From Eledone cirrhosa (lineage: Eukaryota): a stretch of 64,000 bases of DNA. Where the stretch lies: the NCBI GenBank assembly GCA_964016885.1, contig OZ024742.1, forward strand, positions 103,788,001 through 103,852,000, given 5' to 3'. Positions within the stretch are counted from its first letter, which is position 1; the number at the start of each line of letters is the position of its first letter. A program made the translations under genes and the position numbers. This document shows, piece by piece, positions 570 to 60,616 of the stretch. The notes below the pieces were generated by a model. It searched no databases and was not told where the DNA came from. It saw only the letters and a list, made by a program, of their open reading frames with translations.

Positions 570-1640
570 TATCATCATCATCATCATCATCAACGTTTAA
601 CGTCCGTGTTCCACGCTTGCATGGGTTTGGACGGGGGTAGTCCCACTTGAGGCAAGAGTGATTGTCTTGCTCGCATAGGACTGTCTGGCAGGTTTTCTAC
701 AGTTGGATGCCCTTCCTAACACCAACCACATTTACAGTGTGGGTCTGGGAGATTTTTACGGTGTTGCCTACACGGCCACATTACAGCGTGGACTGTGTGT
801 TTTTTTGTCGTGACACCTACACGATCTCATTTGTTTCGGCCTGGATGGTGTGGCACCAACATAACTTTACATAGAAGGGGCGGTGTGGATAGGTGGGGGT
901 GGTGGGACGGGGGTGTATTTTGTTAGAGATGCCTACCGATTGTAGTAGGTTTTACTATGTATTTAGGTAAGGCGGGTCTTCTCTATTACTGAGTACCGCC
1001 AAGGGTCTCGGTCCAGTGACATTGTCTTGGAGAGGTGTAAGTGTGTGAGGTCAGAGTTTATCAGCTCGTCCCAGGTTTTTCTAGGTCTGTCTATTCCGTG
1101 GCTACCGTCTATCTTTATTGCCCTGCACTTTGTTATACAGCTATCGACTTTCATGCGCATCACGTGTCCATACCAACGTAGCCTTCTCTCGAGTAAACAA
1201 CATCTGATCCCTCTTATTTCTAATTTTTTCCTTAGTTCGTTTATGCTTTGCCGTTCACGTATATTACTATTACACATCCAGCGGAGCATGCAAGCTTCGT
1301 TCCTCTCTAGTCTGCGTATATCCTCTGCACACAATGCCCAGGTCTCACTACCATGCAACATTGCTGTTCGTATGCAGGCATCATACAACCTGCCTTTCAT
1401 TTTTAGGGAGAATCCTTTAGCGGCTAATAGTGGTATAAGCTCTCTGAACTTTTCCCATCCAGTTCTGACTCTAGCTACTGTACTTTCAGAGCACCCTCCC
1501 CCACTGCTGATTTTGTCACCCAGGTAACGGAAGCTGTCCACTATTTCTATAGAGCCCTCTGCGCAGTTGAAAGAGCTAGTATTTTGTGGGCACTTGCTGC
1601 TACTTATTGCACCAGAGCACCGGCCACATGTAAAATCTAT
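570..1640 (-). mobile_element. 5'-truncated RTE-clade LINE, family A copy 1: ORF C-terminus, 3'UTR and (GAT)n tail
   Basis: ORF 963..1541 (FRYLG, HGSETW, RRLRWYGHVMR, RPRKTW); tail is (atc)n at 570-590. Confidence 0.93.
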
Positions 1641-2146
1641 ACATAGATATACTCAATGTTATCAAAATCTATAGATAGAAAATTTTTTATCCTTTTACCA
1701 ATATCTGGAAGATATGTAATATATGATGCTCTAAAATCATGTATAAAACTTTCACATATACTATAATTAGAATATTATTTGAAAGTAAATATTAGACTAA
1801 ACGCTAAATATAACTATATCTTTAAATAATGTGACTCCGTAAACTAATAAAAATTAGAGTTATCTTTTCCTTTGATAAAAACTTGTTTACATCTAAACTT
1901 TACGAGACATTCAAGCTTAATATAAATATTAAAAATTTGGTAATATTATTTCTATCTTGATACAACTCTAGAATATACAAAATAATATACATCTTCTATA
2001 CAAAAATATAATTATTTCCACATTCTTAAACTATATATTGAAAATGTAAACATATCTTCGCCCAGCATATCCTAACTGTTTTCTTATATAAAGGAATCTA
2101 TATCCAACCTTAACTATTTATCTACTAAATAAATAAAATATATATT

Positions 2147-3783
2147 CAACTACAGGAGAAGTACCTAACTAAAAGTAAACCTAGTAAACTTAGCTTTTGT
2201 TGACTTGGAGAAAGCCTTTGACAGAGTCCCACGCCCTATTATCTGGTGGGCTCTCAGAAAACTAGGTGTTGATGAATGGCTTGTGAGAGCTATACAAGCC
2301 ATGTATAAAGAAACAGTCAGCAAGGTTAGAATTAACAATGACTATAGTGAAGAGTTTAGCGTAAAAGTTGGTGTTCATCAGGGCTCCGTCCTTAGCCCCC
2401 TCCTATTTATTATTGCCCTTCAGGCTATAACAGAGGAGTTCAAGACCGGCTGCCCATGGGAACTCCTATACGCTGATGATCTAATGCTTATAGCTGAACT
2501 AGAGAAGAAATTCCAAACATGGAAGCATGGCCTAGAATCAATAGGCCTTAAAATTAACCTGTCTAAGACTAAAGTTCTAGTATGTAGGAAGGAAAATAGG
2601 GCACTGGTCCCATCTGGGAAATGGCCATGCTCAGTGTGTAGGAAAGGAGTAGGCAGAAACTCCATTTTATGTCCTAAATGCAAAGTACGAGTGCATAAAA
2701 GATGTAGTGGGATCACAGGTAAGCTAACTAAGAATATAGATTTTATATGTGGCCGGTGCTCAGGTGCAATAAGTAGTAGCAAGTGCCCACAGAATACTAG
2801 CCCATTCCATTGCACAGATGGTTCTATAGAAATAGTGGACACCTTCCGTTACCTGGGTGACAAAATCAGCAGTGGTGGAGGGTGCTCTGAAAGTACAGTA
2901 GCTAGAGTCAGAACGGGATGGAAAAAGTTCAGAGAGCTTATACCACTATTGGCCGCTAATGGTTTCTCTCTAAAAATGAAAGGCAGGCTGTATGATGCCT
3001 GCATACGAACAGCAATGTTACATGGCAGTGAGACTTGGGCATTGTGTGCAGAGGATCTACGCAGACTAGAGAGGAACGAAGCTTGCATGCTCCGTTGGAT
3101 GTGTAATAGTAATATATGTGAACGGCAAAGCATAAATGAACTAAGTGAGAAATTAAGAATAAGAGGGATCAGATGCTGTTTACTCGAGAGAAGACTATGT
3201 TGGTATGGTCACGTGATGCGTATGAAAAACGACAGTTGTATAAAAAAGTGCAGGGCGATCAAAATAGACGGTAGCCACGGAGTAGGCAGACCCAGAAAAA
3301 CCTGGGACGACTTGATAAATTCCGACCTCACACACTTATACCTCTTCAAGACAATGTCACTGGACCGAGATCTTTGGCGCTGCGTAGTAATACAGAAGAC
3401 CCGCCTTGCCTAAGTGCAAAGCGAAACCTAGTCAGTAGGCACCTCTTACCAAAATACACCCCCGTCCCACTACCCCCACCCCATCCACACCACCCCCTTT
3501 TGACATAAAGTTATGTTGGTACCACAACATCCATGAGGTTGTGTAGGTGTCACGACAAAAAAACACAGTCCACGCTGTAATGTGGCCATGTAGGTAACAC
3601 GGTAAAAACCTCCCAGTCCACACTGTAAACGTGGTTGGTGTTAGGAAGGGCATCCAGCCGTAGAAAACCCGCCAGACAGTCCTATACGAGCAAGACAACC
3701 AATCTTGCCTCAAGTGGAAAAATGCCCGTCCTACCCATGCTAGCGTGGAAGATGGACGTTAAACGATGATGATGATGATGATT
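2147..3783 (+). mobile_element. 5'-truncated RTE LINE, family A copy 2: RT, PHD finger, C-terminus, (GAT)n tail
   Basis: ORF 2205..3413 with EKAFDRVP, GVHQGSVLSPLLF, LLYADD; tail aaacgatgatgatgatgatg. Confidence 0.95.
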
Positions 3784-4377
3784 CACCATAACTATTTATA
3801 TATACAATTAAACTCTTATAATATAATAAAATATACTTATAACTACAATCTTCATAATATTAAAACACACCCGTAGAATACATCAAATTGTATATATAAA
3901 TATAAGCTATCTTTCACATATTGAATTAATAGTTTATCACTTTAATACATTTATTTATAATTCACACATTATATTATAAATATTTCCAAATTATATAATT
4001 AAATAAATAAAAATAAATATAATTATTTTATTCTTTCTACACCCTTGCAAATATGTTTTGGACAATTATACCTACATGGCCACATTACATATAAATATTC
4101 TGTAAGTAGCTTTAAATTTTTTTTTTTTTCTTAAAATCTTTTCTTCAATTTTTTTCTTCCACCCTAATAGTAACCTTTCTTTCCTTTTCTTATTAAAAAA
4201 TAATTCTAATAATTATTTAAATATACCTAGCATCTAAACATAACAGTCTTTTTCAGTTTTAACGTTATCCTCATTAGCATATTCATCTCGAGGTTTGAAG
4301 TTTTATTCACTATGTACATAGAACTCATAACGTTAAGTTCATATGTAGATATGTCACTATCTGTAAACCAATTTTTG

Positions 4378-9654: not shown

Positions 9655-10500
9655 CATTCCACTACAGTGGACTGCCAGGTACCTAATCTACTGGGATCTG
9701 TCTCACAAAGTGTCCCTCCATTACAGAGGACTGCCGGGTACCTAATCTACTGGGGGTCTTCCTAATAAAGTGTCCCTCCACTACAGTGGACTGCCAGGTA
9801 CCTAGTCTACTGGGATTTTCCTAACAAAGTGTCTAAACCCCACTAGAATGGACTGCCAGGTACCTTGTTTATAGGGATCTGTCTGATAAAATATCACTCC
9901 TCTACTATAGTGGACTGCCAGGTACCTAGTCTATAGGGATCTACCTAACAAAGTACCTACTCTCGGGGCCCAAATAATAGGGGGTGATGGGTAAGCAGGT
10001 GGAGGTGTGGAATAATCAGGTGGGGGTTGGAAAATCAGTAATTTTTCTCAGTTGTTTCCACTGATTTTTAAAAAAACAGAATTAGTTGTTTAGTTTACAT
10101 ATTGAGACCCCCCAAACCATCCTATTTATTCTATAACATAGGATTTCAAGTAATTTACTTTTTTGGTCATGTATAAAGATTTTTCAATGTCTAAAGAAAA
10201 TTAATCGTCACAGGAATGCTACCACTTAAAATAAAATTTTGCCAAAGATAGATTAGCAAAATTTAATATAGATGGGGTGGGGAATCTGGAAAATTAATAA
10301 GAAGGAGGAGGGGAGACCATTATTTGAGACATGAGAGTATCCTCTACTAGAATGGACTGCCAGGTACTTAGTCTACTGGGATCTGCCTCACAAAGTGTTT
10401 TATAGTGGACTGTTTGGTACCTAATCTATAGAGATCTGCCTGACAAAGTGTCGCTCCTCTACTACAGTGGACAACTGAGTATCAAGTCTATTGGGATTGC
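9655..10500. repeat. ~61-bp minisatellite interrupted by a MITE
   Basis: Unit ccactacagtggactgccaggtacctaatctactgggatctgtctcacaaagtgt; about 5 units left and 3 right of 9958-10339. Confidence 0.88.
9958..10339. mobile_element. Tc1/mariner-type MITE with TA termini
   Basis: Imperfect TIRs tactctcggggcccaaataat / attatttgagacatgagagta. Confidence 0.65.
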
Positions 10501-10519
10501 CTGAAATACATCCACTTAC

Positions 10520-10642
10520 CTTATCATATTGCTTTTCCCGTGCTTTGGCTTTGTTCAGTTCTTGTGTTTGTGTTTTCAAGTCACCTTGCATTAAGTTGCG
10601 CCTCTGTATTTCCTGTTCAACTTGAAGATTTAGATTTTTCAC
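10520..10642 (-). CDS. ROCK: ROCK exon (123 nt): VKNLNLQVEQEIQRRNLMQGDLKTQTQELNKAKAREKQYDK
   Basis: tgacag/gtaagt boundaries; resembles the vertebrate VKNLTLQLEQE..KR...Q.DLK.Q segment. Confidence 0.93.
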
Positions 10643-11390
10643 CTGTCAGTCACAAATATAACATGTTAGAATTACATCTGTTAGTCACAAATATAACATG
10701 GTAGAACTACATCTGTTAGTCACAAATATAACATGGTAGAACTACATTTGTTAGTCACAAATATAACATTGTAGAGCCACACATGTCAGTCATAATTATA
10801 ATATAGTAGAATTACATCTGTTAGTTATAATTACAACATGGTAGGATTACATCTGTTAGTTATAATTACAACATGGTAGGACTACATCAGTCGGTCATAA
10901 ATATAACATGGTAGAACTATATCTGTCAGTCACACACATAACGTGGTAGAACTACATCTGTCAGTCACACATATAACATGGTAGAACTACATCCGTCAGT
11001 CACACATATAACATGGTAGAATTACATCTGTCATTCACAGATATAACATTGTAGAACTACATCTGTCAGTCACATATATAACATGGTAGAACTACATCTG
11101 TCAGTCACATATATAACATGGTAGAACTACATCTGTCAGTCACATATATAACATGGTAGAACTACATCTGACAGTGACATATAACACGGTAAAACTACAT
11201 CTGACAGTGACATATAACACGGTAGAACTACATCTGTCAGTCACACATATAACATGGTAGAATTACATGTCAGCCACACATATAACATGGTAGAACTACA
11301 TCTGTTAGTCACACATATAACATGGTAGAACTCCATCTGTCAGTCACAAATATAACATGGTAGAATTACATGTCTGTCACATATATAACA
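10643..11390. repeat. 33-35-bp minisatellite, about 21 copies, derived from the exon's 3' splice site
   Basis: Unit catctgtcagtcacatatataacatggtagaacta; the first unit contains the real acceptor AG. Confidence 0.93.
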
Positions 11391-14169
11391 TTTACTTAAA
11401 GACACTTATTATGTAAAGTGATTGTTGATAGGAAGGGCATCGAGCTGTAAAAAACCTGCCAAACAAAGGGGTGGGACAATTCTGTTGTGTCAAAGACATT
11501 ATAACCTCCTCAGTGATCATACAACAATAAAATGCACAGCCTATGCTGCAAAATGCAGGAACTTATGTGAGATGTAGACACCCCTGGCTCATCTGAGAGA
11601 TCAGTAGCTCCAATGAAATACTAACTTGGCCTGTAATGACATATCTAATGCATGCTAGCAGGGAAACTAACATTAAATGATGATGAAATTAACAAAAGAT
11701 ATTGGTTTCATGCCCTAAACAATCTTTACAAACCCCAAAATATAACTGAAAGTTCATCTCTGCATATGAAAATATTATGCAATGTCAACTTAGAAAATTA
11801 TGTATTCAATTTTTAACTGTCACACTGAAATTATTTACACAAGAGAAAATGTTTGAGAATGCAAAGTGATTGTATGTTTAGAGTGAATTCTCTCAATTCT
11901 TTTTTTATTTAAATAATTTTTATAAGTTTGATAGTAGTTCAGTCGTTTCAGAGAAAAAACAATCTTGTCTTTGAGTAGTTGCTTAGGGATATGTAGAATA
12001 AGCGCACTTTTGCAATAGCAGAAAATGAATAGTACAATCAAAGTAATGTAAATCTTACATTTGAGTAGTGCTACTTATATTACATCTGTTTTTAAAATAA
12101 CTATAGTATGACATTTGATAACTTAAGTATACTTTCAAAATTGATATAACAATCATCATTATTGTACATCCACTTTCATGCTGTCATAGGCTGGATGTGT
12201 CAGTTTGTATTTGGAGTAGCTGTTCTCCAAGACAGATTGAATGACCATGTTTTGCTCATGTTTCATCATCATTAACATCACTTTATATGCCGAGGTTAAC
12301 TTTGCCTTTCATCCTTATGGGGTTGATAAAATAAAGTACCAGTAATGCACTGCGTAATTGCTGGCCTTGTGCCAAAAGTAGAAACAATTATCATCACTTT
12401 ATATTCACTTTCAATGCTGGCAAAGGTTGGACAGGTTGTCTAAACAGATTCTTTGCTTAAACATTCATTCTATGGTTATATAAATTATTACCTGTACATA
12501 TAACTTTTATTTAATCCTCACTGGATTATGGTCTTCTGATGCTTGTATTTGCATTTACTATTATAACAATAATAATAATCATCATTATCACTGTTTATGA
12601 CCATGTCTTGCTCATACAGAGCTGTTTCTATCTAGGTTTCTATGGCTGGTTGCCTTTCCTTGTGGCACCAAAACAGCCAACTGAGAGGTTGAATTGGGTA
12701 GTTTTTCATCGTGCCACCAACATGACCACTTTACAGAGTGGACTGGGTGCTTTTGTCATGTCACCAACACGACCACCAGTACAACCATCTAAACTAAAAC
12801 AATAAAATAGTTCCTTAGTATGGCATCATATAAAGCTGTGGAAGGAATTTCTAACTCTTTACAATCTAGAATTATGAAGCTCATGCAAGGAATGAAAGAC
12901 TGAAAAAGATGAAAGAAAAGAGAATACGGTATTATATACACACACACACTGTAGAGTTTTTAACCAAGCTAAAACAATACAAATTTTCAGACTAATGCCA
13001 TTCTAATAAAGGAAACAAAAAGATACCACAAAGAAGCAGTGTTACAGTATTTACTAATAAGGGGGATATGTGTAAAAAAAGGAAGAGATGTGTTATAAGT
13101 TTGTAGGTTTACAATGACCATTTCATCAGTTTATCTTACACCAGATGTTTACCTACAGCCTCCAAATTGCCTAATCATGTAAGTTTGTAAATATGTATTC
13201 TATTTTATGTGGCATTCAACATAGCTGAATAATTAGGAAGTTGGTTTCATAGTTATGAGATTCCAAGCTCAATACCATTGCATGGAATCTTGGTTGTCTT
13301 TTACCCATAGCATAGTGTCAACCCAAGACTTGTGAGTCAAACTGGATAAATAGAAAGTGTTTTGAAGTTCGTTGGATGAACTGTACCTGTAATTCAAAAG
13401 GCTAACTTTCTCAAACAGTGTTTGATGCTGATGCTGACTCTCTCTAAGACTTATATTAAGAATACACATGTCAGTGGAATATTCAGCCACTTACACATTG
13501 ATTAAATGAATAGGCCTTACTGTTGATCAAATAACAGTAGGTTCATTTAGGTCCAATGTTATAACAAAAGCTAGGTGAAAATATTTGAAAATTTTCACAT
13601 TTTTCCCTTTATATCCATGTTTCAATACACATGTGAGGTTGTGGCAAACTTAGAAATTTACTTGTTAATGAAGCAATTGTTTTTACAGTGGATGCAGGTG
13701 GCATGGTAGCAAATTTAGAAATCTGCTTCTTCTTTTGCTCATTACCCAGCCAAAACCAGCTCTGGTTCTATGAAACAAAACCACCCATTTTAAAGGGTTC
13801 CTATTTAAATTAAGTCTTCCAACATAATTTTATATAAGAACCATATGTTAAGTTACTAACTTAAATTTCTTCATTAATTAATTGAAACAATGTATTTTAT
13901 TAGAAATACAGTCATTAAAGGGTTATAGCTCCAAGTTGACCCTCTTGGATTATTTTGGCAATATTGCTCATTGTAGAAACAAACTGGCTAAGTCATTATA
14001 GAACAAAACTCTTCATTTGTAAACTGAAAATCAACTTGGGAGACATTACCCAACAACTATAAAACTTCTTTTTCCATTCATTTCGAGCCTGGAATAATTT
14101 TCTCCAACTATATTTCATTACAGGCAAAGTTTGGTGAAATAATAAAGTGTAGACTAATTTTTGATGAAA

Positions 14170-17160: not shown

Positions 17161-17321
17161 TTTCTCAGTTTCTGTTTTCAAATCTCGCTGTACAATTTCA
17201 ATTGTCTGTCTCATCTGTGACAGATCTAAAGATAGTTCACTCTTCTCTTTCTCTAGTTGTAATTTTTCACTTTCAGCTGTTTGTCGCACACTTCGTTCTT
17301 GGTCAATTATCACCTGAAGTT
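17161..17321 (-). CDS. ROCK: ROCK exon (161 nt): ELQVIIDQERSVRQTAESEKLQLEKEKSELSLDLSQMRQTIEIVQRDLKTETEK
   Basis: ttatag/gtaagt boundaries; phase 1-0. Confidence 0.92.
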
Positions 17322-23391: not shown

Positions 23392-25865
23392 TCCAAGCCT
23401 CTTTCCGTCAGTGATTATATATTATCTTTCAGACATTGCAAGCCTCTTTCTGCCAGTGATTATATATTATCTTTCAGATATTGCAAGCCTCTTTCCGCCA
23501 GTGATTATATATTATCTTTCAGACATTGCAAGCCTCTTTCTGCCAGTGATTATATATTATCTTTCAGACATTGCAAGCCTCTTTCCGCCAGTGATTATAT
23601 ATTATCTTTCAGACATTGCAAGCCTCTTTCCACCCGTGATTATATATTATCTTTCTGACATTGCAAGCCTCTTCTCGCCAGTGATTATATATTATCTTTC
23701 TGACATTGCAAGCCTCTTCCCGCCAGTGATTATATATTATCTTTCAGACATTGCAAGCCTCTTCCCGCCAGTGATTATATATTATCTTTCTGACATTGCA
23801 AGCCTCTTTCCGCCAGTGATTATATATTATCTTTCAGACATTGCAAGCCTCTTTCTGGCAGTGATTATATATTATCTTTCAGACATTGCAAGCCTCTTTC
23901 TGCCAGTGATTATATATTATCTTTCTGACATTGCAAGCCTCTTTCCGCCAGTGATTATATATTATCTTTCAGACATTGCAAGCCTCTTTCTGCCAGTGAT
24001 TATATATTATCTTTCTGACATTGCAAGCCTCTTTCCGCCAGTGATTATATATTATCTTTCAGACATTGCAAGCCTCTTTCTGCCAGTGATTATATATTAT
24101 CTTTCTGACATTGCAAGCCTCTTTCCGCCAGTGATTATATATTATCTTTCAGACATTGCAAGCCTCTTTCTGCCAGTGATTATATATTATCTTTCAGACA
24201 TTGCAAGCCTCTTTCTGGCAGTGATTATATATTATCTTTCAGACATTGCAAGCCTCTTTCTGCCAGTGATTATATATTATCTTTCTGACATTGCAAGCCT
24301 CTTTCCGCCAGTGATTATATATTATCTTTCAGACATTGCAAGCCTCTTTCTGCCAGTGATTATATATTATCTTTCTGACATTGCAAGCCTCTTTCCGCCA
24401 GTGATTATATATTATCTTTCAGACATTGCAAGCCTCTTTCTGCCAGTGATTATATATTATCTTTCTGACATTGCAAGCCACTTTCCGCCAGTGATTATAT
24501 ATTATCTTTCAGACATTGCAAGCCTCTTTCTGCCAGTGATTATATATTATCTTTCAGACATTGCAAGCCTCTTTCTGCCAGTGATTATATATTATCTTTC
24601 AGACATTGCAAGCCTCTTTCTGCCAGTGATTATATATTATCTTTCTGACATTGCAAGCCTCTTTCCGCCAGTGATTATATATTATCTTTCAGACATTGCA
24701 AGCCTCTTTCTGCCAGTGATTATATATTATCTTTCTGACATTGCAAGCCTCTTTCCGCCAGTGATTATATATTATCTTTCAGACATTGCAAGCCTCTTTC
24801 TGCCAGTGATTATATATTATCTTTCTGACATTGCAAGCCTCTTTCCGCCAGTGATTATATATTATCTTTCAGACATTGCAAGCCTCTTTCTGCCAGTGAT
24901 TATATATTATCTTTCAGACATTGCAAGCCTCTTTCTGCCAGTGATTATATATTATCTTTCAGACATTGCAAGCCTCTTTCTGCCAGTGATTATATATTAT
25001 CTTTCAGACATTGCAAGCCTCTTCCCGCCAGTGATTATATATTATCTTTCAGACATTGCAAGCCTCTTTCTGCCAGTGATTATATATTATCTTTCTGACA
25101 TTGCAAGCCTCTTTCCGCCAGTGATTATATATTATCTTTCAGACATTGCAAGCCTCTTTCTGCCAGTGATTATATATTATCTTTCTGACATTGCAAGCCT
25201 CTTTCTGCCAGTGATTATATATTATCTTTCTGACATTGCAAGCCTCTTTCTGCCAGTGATTATATATTATCTTTCTGACATTGCAAGCCTCTTTCCGCCA
25301 GTGATTATATATTATCTTTCAGACATTGCAAGCCTCTTTCTGCCAGTGATTATATATTATCTTTCTGACATTGCAAGCCTCTTTCTGCCAGTGATTATAT
25401 ATTATCTTTCTGACATTGCAAGCCTCTTTCTGCCAGTGATTATATATTATCTTTCAGACATTGCAAGCCTCTTCCCGCCAGTGATTATATATTATCTTTC
25501 TGACATTGCAAGCCTCTTTCTGGCAGTGATTATATATTATATTTCAGACATTGCAAGCCTCTTTCTGCCAGTGATTATATATTATCTTTCTGACATTGCA
25601 AGCCTCTTTCTGCCAGTGATTATATATTATCTTTCTGACATTGCAAGCCTCTTTCTGCCAGTGATTATATATTATCTTTCAGACATTGCAAGCCTCTTTC
25701 TGCCAGTGATTATATATTATCTTTCTGACATTGCAAGCCTCTTTCTGGCAGTGATTATATATTATATTTCAGACATTGCAAGCCTCTTTCTGCCAGTGAT
25801 TATATATTATCTTTCAGACATTGCAAGCCTCTTCCCGCCAGTGATTATATATTATCTTTCAGACA
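23392..25865. repeat. 45-bp minisatellite, about 55 near-identical copies
   Basis: Unit GCAAGCCTCTTTC(C/T)GCCAGTGATTATATATTATCTTTC(A/T)GACATT with no spacers. Confidence 0.98.
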
Positions 25866-28345: not shown

Positions 28346-29450
28346 TACAAGGTTTGTCGCAAAAATAAGAGTATATTAAATATACATGAAATTATAAGTT
28401 ATCTTCTTTAAAATACAAACTTTAGGAAGTCACACAGTGGTTCCAATGTTTTTTTCCATTGATCGTAGCAGTACCCAAAGTCATCTTTTTTTTAGTGTCC
28501 CTAGCTCGTCAGTTACAATTTTTTGTACATTTTCCACAGTCCCAAAATTATGACCCTTCAACTTTGATTTCAACTAAGGGAAGAGGTAGAAATCTGGGCT
28601 GTAGAGAAAATGTGGAAGAGTGGGAATGCTTTTCTTTATCAGAAATTCTCTAATTGAAAGTACTGTGTGAGCAGGTGTGTTATCATGGTGCAGTAACCAA
28701 TCCCTTGCAACGTCCTTTCGGACTCGCTTGATCCATTTTCGAAGTCATTCCACGACATCTTTGTAGAAGGCGCAATTAGCTGGAGGTAAACATTTTTTGT
28801 GAACAATACCACAGCCGTTCGAAAAAATTATAATCATCGTTTTTACCCTGGATATGCTCATGTGCTTTCTTCAGACGAGGAGATTTTACATGTGCTACTT
28901 CTGACTTTGCCATTTTGTTCCTGGATCATAGTCGAACACCCATGATTCATCTCCTGTTATTACTTTATCCAAGAAATTTGGCTCAATTTTGAGTATTTCT
29001 AGAAAATCCTGACAAATTTCCAACCAGTTCACATTTTGTTCCACAAACAAGTGTTTGGGCACTAGTTCTGCACATATTTTTTGCAAGTGCAAATGGTCTG
29101 TTAAAATTCTGAAAAACCAGTTTCTTTTGCAATCATCCTAACATTTAATCAGCGATCTTTCACCTTCATTGCTCACACCACTTCTTCATGTTGTTCATTT
29201 GTTGACTCAATTGGCCTTCAAGAACAAAGTTCATCTTCAACATTTTCTTGGGCCTCTTTGAAAGTTTTGTGTCACTTAAAAATCTTAACTCTCGATAGAG
29301 TGGCATCTCCATAAGTTTATGTTAAAGAATTAAATGTTTCGGTGATGGCTTTGTTGCATTTCATACAAAACTTTTGGAAAACCTGCCTTTTGTAACAATT
29401 CCGACTAAAATCAAAAGTGGTCTTTCGACTTGGTTTCATGAAAACTTAAC
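28346..29450 (-). mobile_element. Decayed mariner transposon
   Basis: KICAELVPKHL and FLDKVITGDESWVFDYDP mariner motifs; many frameshifts; ends uncertain. Confidence 0.85.
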
Positions 29451-49773: not shown

Positions 49774-51927
49774 TATCATCATCAACGTTTAACGTCCGTG
49801 TTCCATGCTTGCATGGGTTTGGACGTGGGTTTTCCCACTTGAGGCAAGAGTGATTGTCTTGCTCGCATAGGACTGTCTGGCGGGTTTTCTACAGCTGGAT
49901 GCCCTTCCTAACACCAACCACATTTACAGTGTAGGGCTGGGAGGTTTTTACCGTGTTGCCTACACGGCCACATTACAGCGTGGACTGTGTGTTTTTTTGT
50001 CGTGACACCTACACGATCTCATTTGTTTCGGCCTGGATGCTGTGGTACCAACATAACTTTACATTGAAAGGCGCGGTGTGGATGGGGTGGGGGTGGTGGG
50101 ACGGGGGTGTATTTTGTTAGAGATGCCTACTGACTGTAGAAAGTTTTACTTTGTATTTAGGTAAGGCGGGTCTTCTCTATTACTGAGTACCGCCAAAGGT
50201 CTCGGTCCAGTGACATTGTCTTGGAGAGGTGTAAGTGTGTGAGGTCGGAATTTATCAGCTCGTCCCAGGTTTTTCTGGGTCTGCCTATTCCGTGGCTACC
50301 GTCTATCTTTATTGCCCTGCACTTTGTTATACAGCTATCGTCTTTCATGCGCATCACGTGACCTTACCAACGTAGCCTTCTCTCGAGTAAACAACATCTG
50401 ATCCCTCTTATTTCTAATTTTTTCCTTAGTTCGTTTATGCTTTGCCGTTCACGTATATTACTATTACACATCCAGTGGAGCATGCAAGCTTCGTTCCTCT
50501 CTAGTCTGCGTATATCCTCTGCACACAATGCCCAGGTCTCACTGCCATGCAACATTGCTGTTCGTATGCAGGCATCATACAACCTGCCTTTCATTTTTAG
50601 GGAGAACCCTTTAGCGGCTAATAGTGGTATAAGCTCTCTGAACTTTTTCCATCCAGTTTTGACTTTAGCTACTGTACTTTCAGAGCACCCTCCCCCACTG
50701 CTGATTTTGTCACCCAGGTAACGGAAGCTGTCCACTATTTCTATAGAACCCTCTGCGCAGTTGAAAGAGCTAGTATTTTGTGGGCACTTGCTGCTACTTA
50801 TTGCACCAGAGCACCGGCCACATGTAAAATCTATGTTCTTAGTTAGCTTACCTGTGATCCCACTACATCTTTTATGCACCCATACTTTGCATTTGGGACA
50901 CAAAATGGAATTTCTACCTACGCCTTTCCTACACCCTGAGCATGGCCACTTCCCGGAAGGGACCGCCGCCTTATTTTCTTTCCTACAAACTAGAACTTTG
51001 GTCTTAGCCAGGTTAACTCCCCTGAAGGGCAATAATAAATAGTAGGGGGCTGAGAACAGAGCCCTGATGGACGCCAACTTTTATGCTAAACTCTTCACTA
51101 TATTCGTTGTTAATTCTAACCTTGCTGACTGTTTCTTTATACATGGCTTGTATAGCTCTCACAAGCCATTCGTCAACACCTAGTTTTCTAAGAGCCCACC
51201 AGATAATGGAACGAGGGACTCTGTCGAAGGCTTTCTCCAAGTCGACAAAAGCTAAGTATAGGGGTTTACTTTTAGCTAGGTACTGCTCCTGTAGTTGTCG
51301 TACAATGAAAAGAGCGTCTGTGGTACTTTTGCCTGACACAAACCCGAACTGCATTTCATCTAGATCAATTCTCTCTCTGATTAGTTGCGCTATTAATTTT
51401 TCCATGACCTTCATGACCTGGTCGATTAATTTAATGCCTCTATAGTTACTCCTATCTAGGGCATCTCCTTTACCCTTATAACAGTTAACGATGATGCTGC
51501 TACACCAGTCCTTCGGAACAACCCCATTCTGTACGACTTGGTTAACTATCCGGGTGACTATGGTGTGTCCCACCGTACCAGATGCCTTCAGCATCTCAGC
51601 AACTATTTCCGAAGGCCCAGCCGCCTTACCCGTCTTCATATCCTTGATTGCCTTACTTATTATACTACCCTCGACTAACAGTGTTGGTCCCTCTATTGGG
51701 TCGATGTGGGGGAGACTGTCTTTCTCCCATTTATTCTCCTCATTTAGTAGCCTTTCATAGTGACACTTCCAAGCTGCCTTCTTATCAGCGTCGGTGATGG
51801 CAAGTACGCCGTCATCATTAAGTACACACTTCTCCCCGACAATATCACGGTTTTCCTTGACACATTGCCTAGCAATCCTGAACACCTCACGTTTTTGGTC
51901 CTCGCGTTGTAGAACATGCTTGATATG
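49774..51927 (-). mobile_element. 5'-truncated RTE LINE, family A copy 3, with 24-bp TSD and internal deletion
   Basis: ORFs 51013..51978, 50364..51077 and 50157..50357; YADD region deleted at ~51018; TSD TATATATATACTGGTCCCTCCACA at 49750-49773 and 51928-51951. Confidence 0.95.
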
Positions 51928-59540: not shown

Positions 59541-60616
59541 ATAAGGTGGTATCAAAAATTTCCCACACTAGTTCTGTTTAAAAAAAAATAATATATTTAC
59601 CTAAGTTTTAACATCATCTCCTTCAAAATAGTCCCCTTATGCAGCAATACACCGGTCCCAGCGTTCCTATCACTTTTGGAATTCAGCCTGGAAGTCATTT
59701 TCTGCAAGCGAGTCGAAGACCTTCTGTGGCTCGCTCTGGATCTCAGCAACAGTGTTAAAACGGCGACCTTTAAACTGCATTTTCAGCTTGGAGAAGTGTT
59801 GGAGGTCCGCAGATGCTAAATCTGGCGAATAGAGCAGGTGCAGAAGCGATACAATGTTTTTGGCGAGAAACTCATGAGTAAGGAGAGCTCGGTGACAGGG
59901 TGCATTCGCGCTCCACAGATCCGGTCGCTTTCGCTGAACATCCACCCTCAAACGCCTCAAAACATTGTAGCAGAACTCTTAATTGACAGTTTGGCCCTGG
60001 GGGATGAATTCTCAATGCACAATATCATGGATGTTGAAAATAACGATGAGCATTCACGTGATTGAGCTGCAGCTCTGCCATGTCTTCTTCGGTCATGGAG
60101 ACGAAGGACTTTTCCACTGTGTTGATTGCTGCTTTGTCTCAGGATCGTACTTGTAGACCCAACTCTCATCACCGGAGATGATCCCCAACATGAAGGATTG
60201 GTCATCAGCAACACGCTGACAGAGATCTTACAGACAACGTGATGTTCTTTCTGTTCGGTGAACAGCAGGCAGGGAACAAACTTGGCAATGACACACTGAA
60301 TGTTCAATTCAAATGTTAAGATTACCTGCACTGACCCATATGAAAGACCAAGAACATCAGCAATATCTGTGATTGACGTCCAACGATCCTCATGCACAAG
60401 CTGATTAATTTTCTCCACATTTCCGGGGTTGGTGCTCATGGCAGGTCTTCCAGATCGCTCGTGATTTTCCAAAGACGTTCTTCAGCTTTTGAAGTGCAAG
60501 TGCCACTCGAAACATTGCATATGACTCATTGTCACAACGCTATAAGTTTGTCGAATCATGCTCAATGTCTCTGTAGCTACAGAACTAGCTTGAAAACCTT
60601 TTGATACCACCTCATA
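59541..60616 (-). mobile_element. Mariner transposon with both TIRs; transposase pseudogenised
   Basis: TIRs (a)ggtggtatcaaaaatttcccacactagttctgt / acagaactagcttgaaaaccttttgataccacct; RSGRP, AKFVP, NAPCH and YSPDLASAD motifs. Confidence 0.92.

What the first reader, a model, noticed from the sequence alone, without database searches (positions are those of the whole stretch)
10643..11390. Splice acceptor amplified about 21-fold into an array of decoy 'poison' 3' splice sites
Seen: on the gene strand the real acceptor unit reads TTCTAACATGTTATATTTGTGACTGACAG/GTG. Upstream copies mostly read TTCTACCATGTTATATGTGACTGACAG/ATGTAG (or ATGTAA). The upstream exon ends in phase 0, so using a decoy AG gives Met-stop immediately. 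Only the last unit has the consensus branch motif CTAAC about 24 nt from its AG; most others have CTACC there. Caveat: CTGAC/CTAAC next to each AG could serve the following unit. Inference: either selection disabled the decoy branch points, or the array is a length-variable NMD/truncation switch. Truncation here would remove the autoinhibitory RBD/PH tail, and such C-terminally truncated ROCK is known to be constitutively active.
Basis: partly seen in the sequence, partly recalled or inferred. Interest (0 to 1): 0.72.

Follow-up and report, generated by a model that had tools for sequence, protein, structure and literature searches.

The report
Silent splice-acceptor minisatellite in octopod ROCK
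The last 35 bases of one intron of an octopus-type Rho-kinase gene are repeated about 21 times, but the one spliced transcript seen uses only the real, last copy, so this is likely a tolerated repeat of a kind already known from lancelets and human genes, not a splicing switch.

Summary
The array is real: 21 units of 33-35 bp (11371-10643, minus strand) ending exactly at the acceptor AG of a ROCK exon in an octopod. 15 of 20 upstream units keep CAG; 13 of these give Met-stop. Only unit 21 has CTAAC at -24. A spliced 5,438-nt contig joins donor 17161 directly to 10642, and no contig of that run lay on the last three units; contigs cannot show rare decoy use. 'Poison' is uninformative: 12% of ordinary AGs in this intron also stop within one codon, and the copies are one event. 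The unique branch motif is the one notable feature (1 of 105 possible substitutions), but 16 other CTRAC motifs survive upstream, so the decoys are not clearly disabled. A second acceptor-copying array turned up among 130 control exons, and the scan has noted this kind before, in this and other genomes (unchecked notes). Closest known: amphioxus 'mirages' and the human ABCA7 and F7 splice-site VNTRs. Best reading (0.78): a local, tolerated minisatellite that splicing skips. Poison switch about 0.05; length-tuned in-frame exon skipping about 0.08. Interest 0.17.

The parts
10643..11371 (-). 35-bp minisatellite, 21 full units, each a copy of the intron's 3' end; 15 of 20 upstream units end in CAG
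11372..11394 (-). partial distal unit (about 20 nt of the unit's AG-proximal part) and edge of the array
   Evidence: distal edge seen in DNA contigs
10643..10677 (-). unit 21, the used 3' splice site; AG at 10644-10643; lowest pyrimidine content of 29 mapped ROCK acceptors (0.53)
10665..10669 (-). CTAAC, predicted branch point (A at 10666, -24), unique to unit 21; part of a perfect 10-bp palindrome
   Evidence: branch use inferred, not mapped
10680..10684 (-). CTAAC at the end of unit 20, second candidate branch point, 38 nt from the real AG with only the adjacent CAG between
   Evidence: inferred
10520..10642 (-). ROCK coiled-coil exon, 123 nt, phase 0 at both ends (aa 758-798 of the O. sinensis homologue)
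17161..17321 (-). upstream ROCK exon, 161 nt, donor GTAAGT, phase 0; intron 6,518 nt
10818..10852 (-). unit 16: decoy best placed for use (CTAAC 38 nt upstream, no AG between beyond the adjacent one; PWM 3.4 against 2.0 for the real site)
   Evidence: use not observed
11234..11268 (-). unit 4: decoy with CTGAC 36 nt upstream and no AG between (PWM -0.4)
   Evidence: use not observed

Best explanation
A 35-bp piece at the 3' end of a ROCK intron is repeated 21 times, and the spliced transcript seen joins to the last copy only; the array is likely a locally arisen, tolerated minisatellite whose upstream acceptors are mostly skipped. Shown: the unit occurs only here, ends at the AG, and the main mRNA uses 10642. 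Inferred: a local duplication at (possibly across) the intron-exon border was expanded by slippage or unequal crossing-over. The last AG likely wins because it is nearest the exon and its strong donor 123 nt downstream, is followed by G, and alone has a branch motif at -24, which may make up for a poor pyrimidine tract. The version without that motif is the one that spread, which fits a survivor filter (weak copies cost little) rather than a built device. Any small leak to a decoy would give an early stop and likely be degraded.
For: One unbranched 5,438-nt contig of run X4 covers only exons and joins 17161 to 10642 (record positions 3570-3734, then 3733-3856; the loose end is the upstream exon's end); it was the only X4 contig laid on 10470-10750 at 85% likeness. 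Unit unique to the locus. The ROCK span holds 9 arrays of period 20 or more and 4.5 or more copies in 131 kb. A second acceptor-copying array in 1 of 130 control exon cores with an acceptor candidate. AG is not conserved or destroyed beyond other columns: 16 of 18 at each position. Early stop is the norm after intronic AGs: median 10 codons, 85% within 31, 11.7% within 1, n=317. Known parallels are silent or nearly so: mirages (PMC3087553, PMC3902484), F7 (PMC1557585), ABCA7 single-unit retention about 2% and not length-dependent (PMC5954066).
Against: The RNA evidence is one run of one sample, kind not on record, held as contigs that drop rare variants; only the last 3 units were in the stretch laid. 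Four decoys (10678, 10713, 10818, 10853) score above the real site on a PWM of the other 28 ROCK acceptors, 3.4-3.9 against 2.0, and one more (11302) scores 2.15. 16 upstream CTRAC motifs persist. Only 3 of 28 other ROCK acceptors have CTRAY at -45..-14, so a consensus branch motif is not generally needed here. In ABCA7 array length did change skipping of the next exon.
Confidence: 0.78

Rival explanations
1. Length-variable poison switch: decoy AGs are used in a regulated way, giving NMD or a ROCK cut at about residue 758 without RBD and PH.
For: 15 decoy CAGs, all leading to stops; several score as well as the real site; units 4 and 16 have a plausible borrowed branch point; RBD (949-1013) and PH (from 1123) lie downstream.
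Against: No decoy-joined contig. The stop is one inherited event with a background near 0.12. 5 of 20 copies have lost the AG. The kind recurs at another gene here. [quoted passage not shown]
Confidence: 0.05
2. The array works as a brake on the next exon: competing acceptors lower inclusion of the 123-nt exon, and in-frame skipping removes 41 residues of the coiled coil, changing the length of the ROCK 'ruler'.
For: The exon is phase 0 at both ends and its acceptor is weak (6th lowest of 29 by PWM, lowest pyrimidine content). ABCA7 precedent: skipping rose with VNTR length. Coiled-coil length is reported as conserved and functional.
Against: The only transcript seen includes the exon. No length alleles seen. 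In ABCA7 the array is at a donor.
Confidence: 0.08
3. Functionless but noticeably leaky: decoys take a steady 5-20% of splicing as error, removed by NMD, with no regulation.
For: Decoys 19 and 20 match the real site closely and score higher by PWM; contigs would hide a minor path (tool statement).
Against: F7 pseudo-sites identical to the real one stay unused; ABCA7 leak about 2%; unit 21 alone has the -24 motif, predicted the most accessible of 21 positions (0.69-0.78).
Confidence: 0.09

Closest known systems
Amphioxus 'mirage' minisatellites (Adh3, troponin C, globins BflGb6/BflGb9, PGBD5); PMC3087553 and PMC3902484, passages read
   Same: Tandem copies of a splice junction region, units 10-160 bp, many but not all keep the splice signal, normal splicing not disturbed; BflGb6 is an acceptor-side case.
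   Different: Mirages clearly include exon sequence; here the array stops at the AG and an exon-derived part is only suggested (p about 0.03). 21 copies against 3-6 at BflGb6. Mollusc host. A branch motif private to the used copy is not mentioned in the passages read.
Human ABCA7 intron-18 25-bp VNTR (PMC5954066, passages)
   Same: About 23.7 copies in the reference, starting exactly at the splice dinucleotide; use of the next copy shifts the frame and gives an early stop.
   Different: Donor side, not acceptor. Length polymorphism (12-427 units), 2% single-unit retention and length-dependent exon skipping were measured there; none could be measured here.
Human F7 intron-7 37-bp VNTR (PMC1557585, abstract and Discussion)
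   Same: Similar unit size; pseudo-sites copied from the real site; only the exon-proximal site used.
   Different: Donor side; pseudo-sites identical to the real one and shown competent by mutation; here the copies differ at +1 and -24.

Membership tests
Mirage minisatellite | Tandem repeat at an intron-exon boundary | tested here: met
   Array ends at the last intronic base 10643.
Mirage minisatellite | Unit spans the boundary (contains exon sequence) | tested here: inconclusive
   First 13 nt of unit 21 against the exon start: matched or beaten by 604 of 20,000 random post-AG windows and 1 of 28 other exon starts; whole unit p 0.03-0.06, majority unit not significant. An 8-mer at the distal edge matches the exon at 7 of 8 exactly one period away, 851 of 200,000 by chance, but the test was chosen after seeing it.
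Mirage minisatellite | Many but not all units keep the splice signal | tested here: met
   15 of 20 upstream units end in CAG.
Mirage minisatellite | Regular splicing is not disturbed | tested here: inconclusive
   Main transcript is normal; rare products cannot be seen in contigs.
Mirage minisatellite | Length instability between alleles | not testable with these tools
   The three DNA runs are one sample and short contigs; no second haplotype found in G000.
Splice-site VNTR (ABCA7/F7 type) | Array begins or ends at the real splice dinucleotide, each unit a pseudo-site | tested here: met
   acceptor-side mirror.
Splice-site VNTR (ABCA7/F7 type) | Exon-proximal site is the one mainly used | tested here: met
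   (one run).
Splice-site VNTR (ABCA7/F7 type) | Variable copy number in the population | not testable with these tools
   No second individual's DNA.
Regulated poison splicing (AS-NMD) | Stop-bearing isoform is made at a measurable, regulated level | tested here: inconclusive
   None seen in 1 run of contigs.
Regulated poison splicing (AS-NMD) | Conservation of the poison element across species (criterion recalled) | not testable with these tools
   No relative's genome or run offered.
ROCK kinase | ROCK-type kinase domain, coiled coil, Rho-binding, PH and C1 domains in order | tested here: met

The most novel reading that the evidence does not exclude
The array is a copy-number dial on ROCK: its 15 competing acceptors divert a real share of transcripts to decay or to in-frame skipping of a 41-residue coiled-coil exon, so repeat length sets ROCK dose or the length of its molecular ruler; and the branch point that keeps the real acceptor ahead was itself built by the duplication from a copy of the exon's start.
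Probability: 0.08. Interest if true: 0.62.

Novelty: new member of a known kind. Interest (0 to 1): 0.17.

Why it matters
As it stands it is one more example of a repeat type that is recurrent in this repeat-rich genome. Its modest value is as a natural test case for 3' splice-site choice: 15 near-identical decoys differ from the used site at just a few positions (-24 and +1 above all), so a small minigene series could separate branch-point, +1 and exon-proximity effects. It would matter much more if array length tuned decay or in-frame shortening of ROCK, for which nothing here gives support.

Tried and rejected
1. 'Met-stop is designed': rejected, one inherited event, background 11.7%. 2. 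'AG selectively destroyed or kept': rejected, the AG columns vary like the others. 3. 'Unit comes from a dispersed element': core pattern found only here. The one other DNA hit, C28:12284425-12284926, 73-76% identity, is a different 33-bp satellite among other satellites; chance likeness is my inference. 4. 'RNA structure hides decoy AGs but not the real one': not supported; the real CAG is predicted as paired as the decoys (0.03). The array folds better than 20 of 20 shuffles (z -3.1), as self-complementary units would; only the -24 position is more open in unit 21. 5. 'Whole unit is a copy of the exon's first 30-40 nt': not significant. 6. No run is on record as RNA; X4 is treated as RNA because it covers exons only and is spliced. 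7. Control screen rows dropped after inspection: acceptor hits L103 and L177 (not the true acceptor); donor hits L044, L103, L126 (arrays start away from the donor). 8. Literature searches listed no cephalopod case; the library lacks most subscription journals, the original Adh3 mirage paper was not read, and no supplements were read. The CBS 31-bp VNTR is recalled only and not used as evidence.

Full report
Gene and setting. The window is G000:C3:103788001-103852000 of a 3.0-Gb genome. It carries a ROCK gene on the minus strand: a kinase exon matches ROCK1/2 structures at E about 1e-33 against 1e-19 or weaker for DMPK and MRCK, and the upstream exon is 91% identical to Octopus sinensis ROCK, 1,363 aa. 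With that protein I mapped 29 junctions over 131 kb; two short stretches (aa 406-416 and 1173-1197) were left unmapped. Rho-binding (949-1013), PH (from 1123) and C1 domains lie after the intron in question. The intron runs from donor 17161 to acceptor 10642, 6,518 nt, phase 0.

The observation. TRF finds a 35-bp array at 10643-11391, 21.6 copies, 88%. It has 21 full units and a partial distal one. 15 of 20 upstream units end in CAG; 13 are followed by Met-stop, one by Ile-stop, one reads 31 codons; all 32 AGs from 11405 to 10678 reach a stop within 31 codons. CTAAC with A at -24 is in unit 21 alone. DNA contigs of run X1 hold array variants and the distal edge. A 22-base core pattern hits 10 times genome-wide, all in this array, so the unit arose here.

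Which acceptor is used. Four runs hold the gene's last exon and UTR, none on record as RNA. Run X4 behaves as RNA: one 5,438-nt contig (depth 51.5) covers the upstream exon and none of the unique intron around it, then continues at exon 10642-10520 and on to the 8424 exon; its loose end at 10642 is the end of the upstream exon. It was the only X4 contig laid on 10470-10750 at 85% likeness. The main mRNA therefore uses the real acceptor and includes the exon. Limits: one run, one sample, contigs drop rare variants, and only units 19-21 were in the stretch.

Is 'poison' meaningful? Of 317 other AGs in the intron, 11.7% stop within one codon and 85% within 31. As the units descend from one unit, Met-stop is a single event at about p 0.12. 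The two AG columns are each kept in 16 of 18 full-length units, like other columns, so there is no sign of selection for or against the decoy AGs.

The branch motif. Unit 21 differs from the majority unit at two positions. One removes an AG 6 nt into the unit (shared by 6 of 18 units). The other is private and is the only one of 105 possible substitutions that makes CTRAY with A at -18..-34; it is also predicted the most accessible of the 21 equivalent positions. The real acceptor has the lowest pyrimidine content of 29 ROCK acceptors and a weak PWM score, 2.0, with 5 of 28 lower, so it may lean on a branch point (inference). So the branch motif likely helps, but exon proximity and the +1 G probably matter too.

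Origin. The 22 AG-proximal bases of the unit plus the first 13 bases of the exon would make 35, and an 8-mer at the distal edge recurs in the exon exactly one period away (7 of 8; 851 of 200,000 random), as slippage across the junction would leave. The unit's first 13 bases resemble the exon start only weakly (p about 0.03). A boundary-spanning origin is thus roughly even odds; if true, the -24 motif sits in exon-derived sequence.

How unusual? The ROCK span has 9 arrays of period 20 or more with 4.5 or more copies, and 1 of 29 junctions with self-copies, this one. As a control I fetched 160 of 179 myosin and kinesin exon matches: 149 distinct cores, 130 with an acceptor candidate. One independent case appeared: a kinesin exon present at four loci, with 2, 3, 5 and 5 copies of the whole acceptor plus 15 exon bases, branch motif intact, the copies stopping after 19-23 codons; expression of that gene was not tested. 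Two weaker donor-side cases were seen (L192, L036). A rate near 1% of acceptors would mean many such arrays genome-wide (inference from one event, so very rough). Earlier notes of this scan list similar arrays in UBE3C, Raptor, TMTC4, LRRC23 and others of this genome and in at least 10 genomes; these are unchecked and not counted as evidence, but they pointed me to the term 'mirage'.

Comparison with what is known. Amphioxus mirages are tandem repeats spanning exon-intron boundaries, 10-160 bp, many keeping splice signals, without disturbing splicing (PMC3087553, PMC3902484; passages). The human ABCA7 VNTR starts at the donor GT with about 24 copies; single-unit retention is 2% and does not depend on length, whereas skipping of the next exon does (PMC5954066; passages). 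F7 pseudo-donors are competent but unused, and its Discussion cites globin duplication experiments in which only the proximal duplicated site was used (PMC1557585; abstract and Discussion). A typical branch-to-AG distance of 19-37 nt is given in PMC10078293 (passages). On ROCK, a review reports no autoinhibition and no change of in-vitro activity on deleting the tail, while noting reports of higher activity of caspase-cut ROCK1 (PMC4905274; passages), so 'truncation activates' is contested. The array works like a mirage or an acceptor-side ABCA7/F7 VNTR. It meets the positional and splice-signal features; exon content is inconclusive and length variation untested.

Verdict. Real, locally arisen, and of a known kind. 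Best explanation, 0.78: tolerated minisatellite, real AG chosen by proximity, +1 G and a private branch motif (first two clauses shown, mechanism of choice inferred). Rivals: leaky but functionless 0.09, length-tuned in-frame skipping 0.08, poison switch 0.05. Interest 0.17.

Noticed in passing
L074 (G000:C22:18817656-18820874), L080 (C18), L076 and L079 (C1636), about 1,460 in gene orientation: A kinesin exon at four near-identical loci is preceded by a 120-bp unit that copies the whole acceptor (branch motif, pyrimidine tract, CAG) and 15 exon bases: 2, 3, 5 and 5 acceptor copies. A clear mirage with copy number differing between paralogues.
   Followed up: partly
L192 (G000:C10:13963521-13965646), about 1110-1260: A 33-bp array of about 4 copies starts at a kinesin exon's donor; the copies lack the GTAAG core.
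   Followed up: partly
L036 (G000:C5:20233217-20236546): One degenerate copy of a myosin exon's donor region lies 110 nt into the intron.
   Followed up: partly
window 10520-10642: The exon behind the array is 123 nt and phase 0 at both ends, so skipping would remove 41 coiled-coil residues in frame.
   Followed up: partly
window 23394-25865: 45-bp array of 55 copies at 95% identity in the middle of another ROCK intron, not at a junction.
   Followed up: partly
L025-L026 (G000:C28:12276001-12296000): Abutting satellites of 40 bp (200 copies), 33 bp (30 copies, weakly like the ROCK unit) and 45 bp (over 226 copies).
   Followed up: partly
window 50160-51080 and 966-1652, minus strand: Two near-identical open frames in ROCK introns; the first has a PHD-finger match. 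They look like 3' parts of a LINE-type retroelement (recalled, not tested).
   Followed up: partly
window 59673-60481 and 28577-29321, minus strand: Broken frames that look like mariner-type transposase fragments (recalled); no Pfam match for the two pieces scanned.
   Followed up: partly
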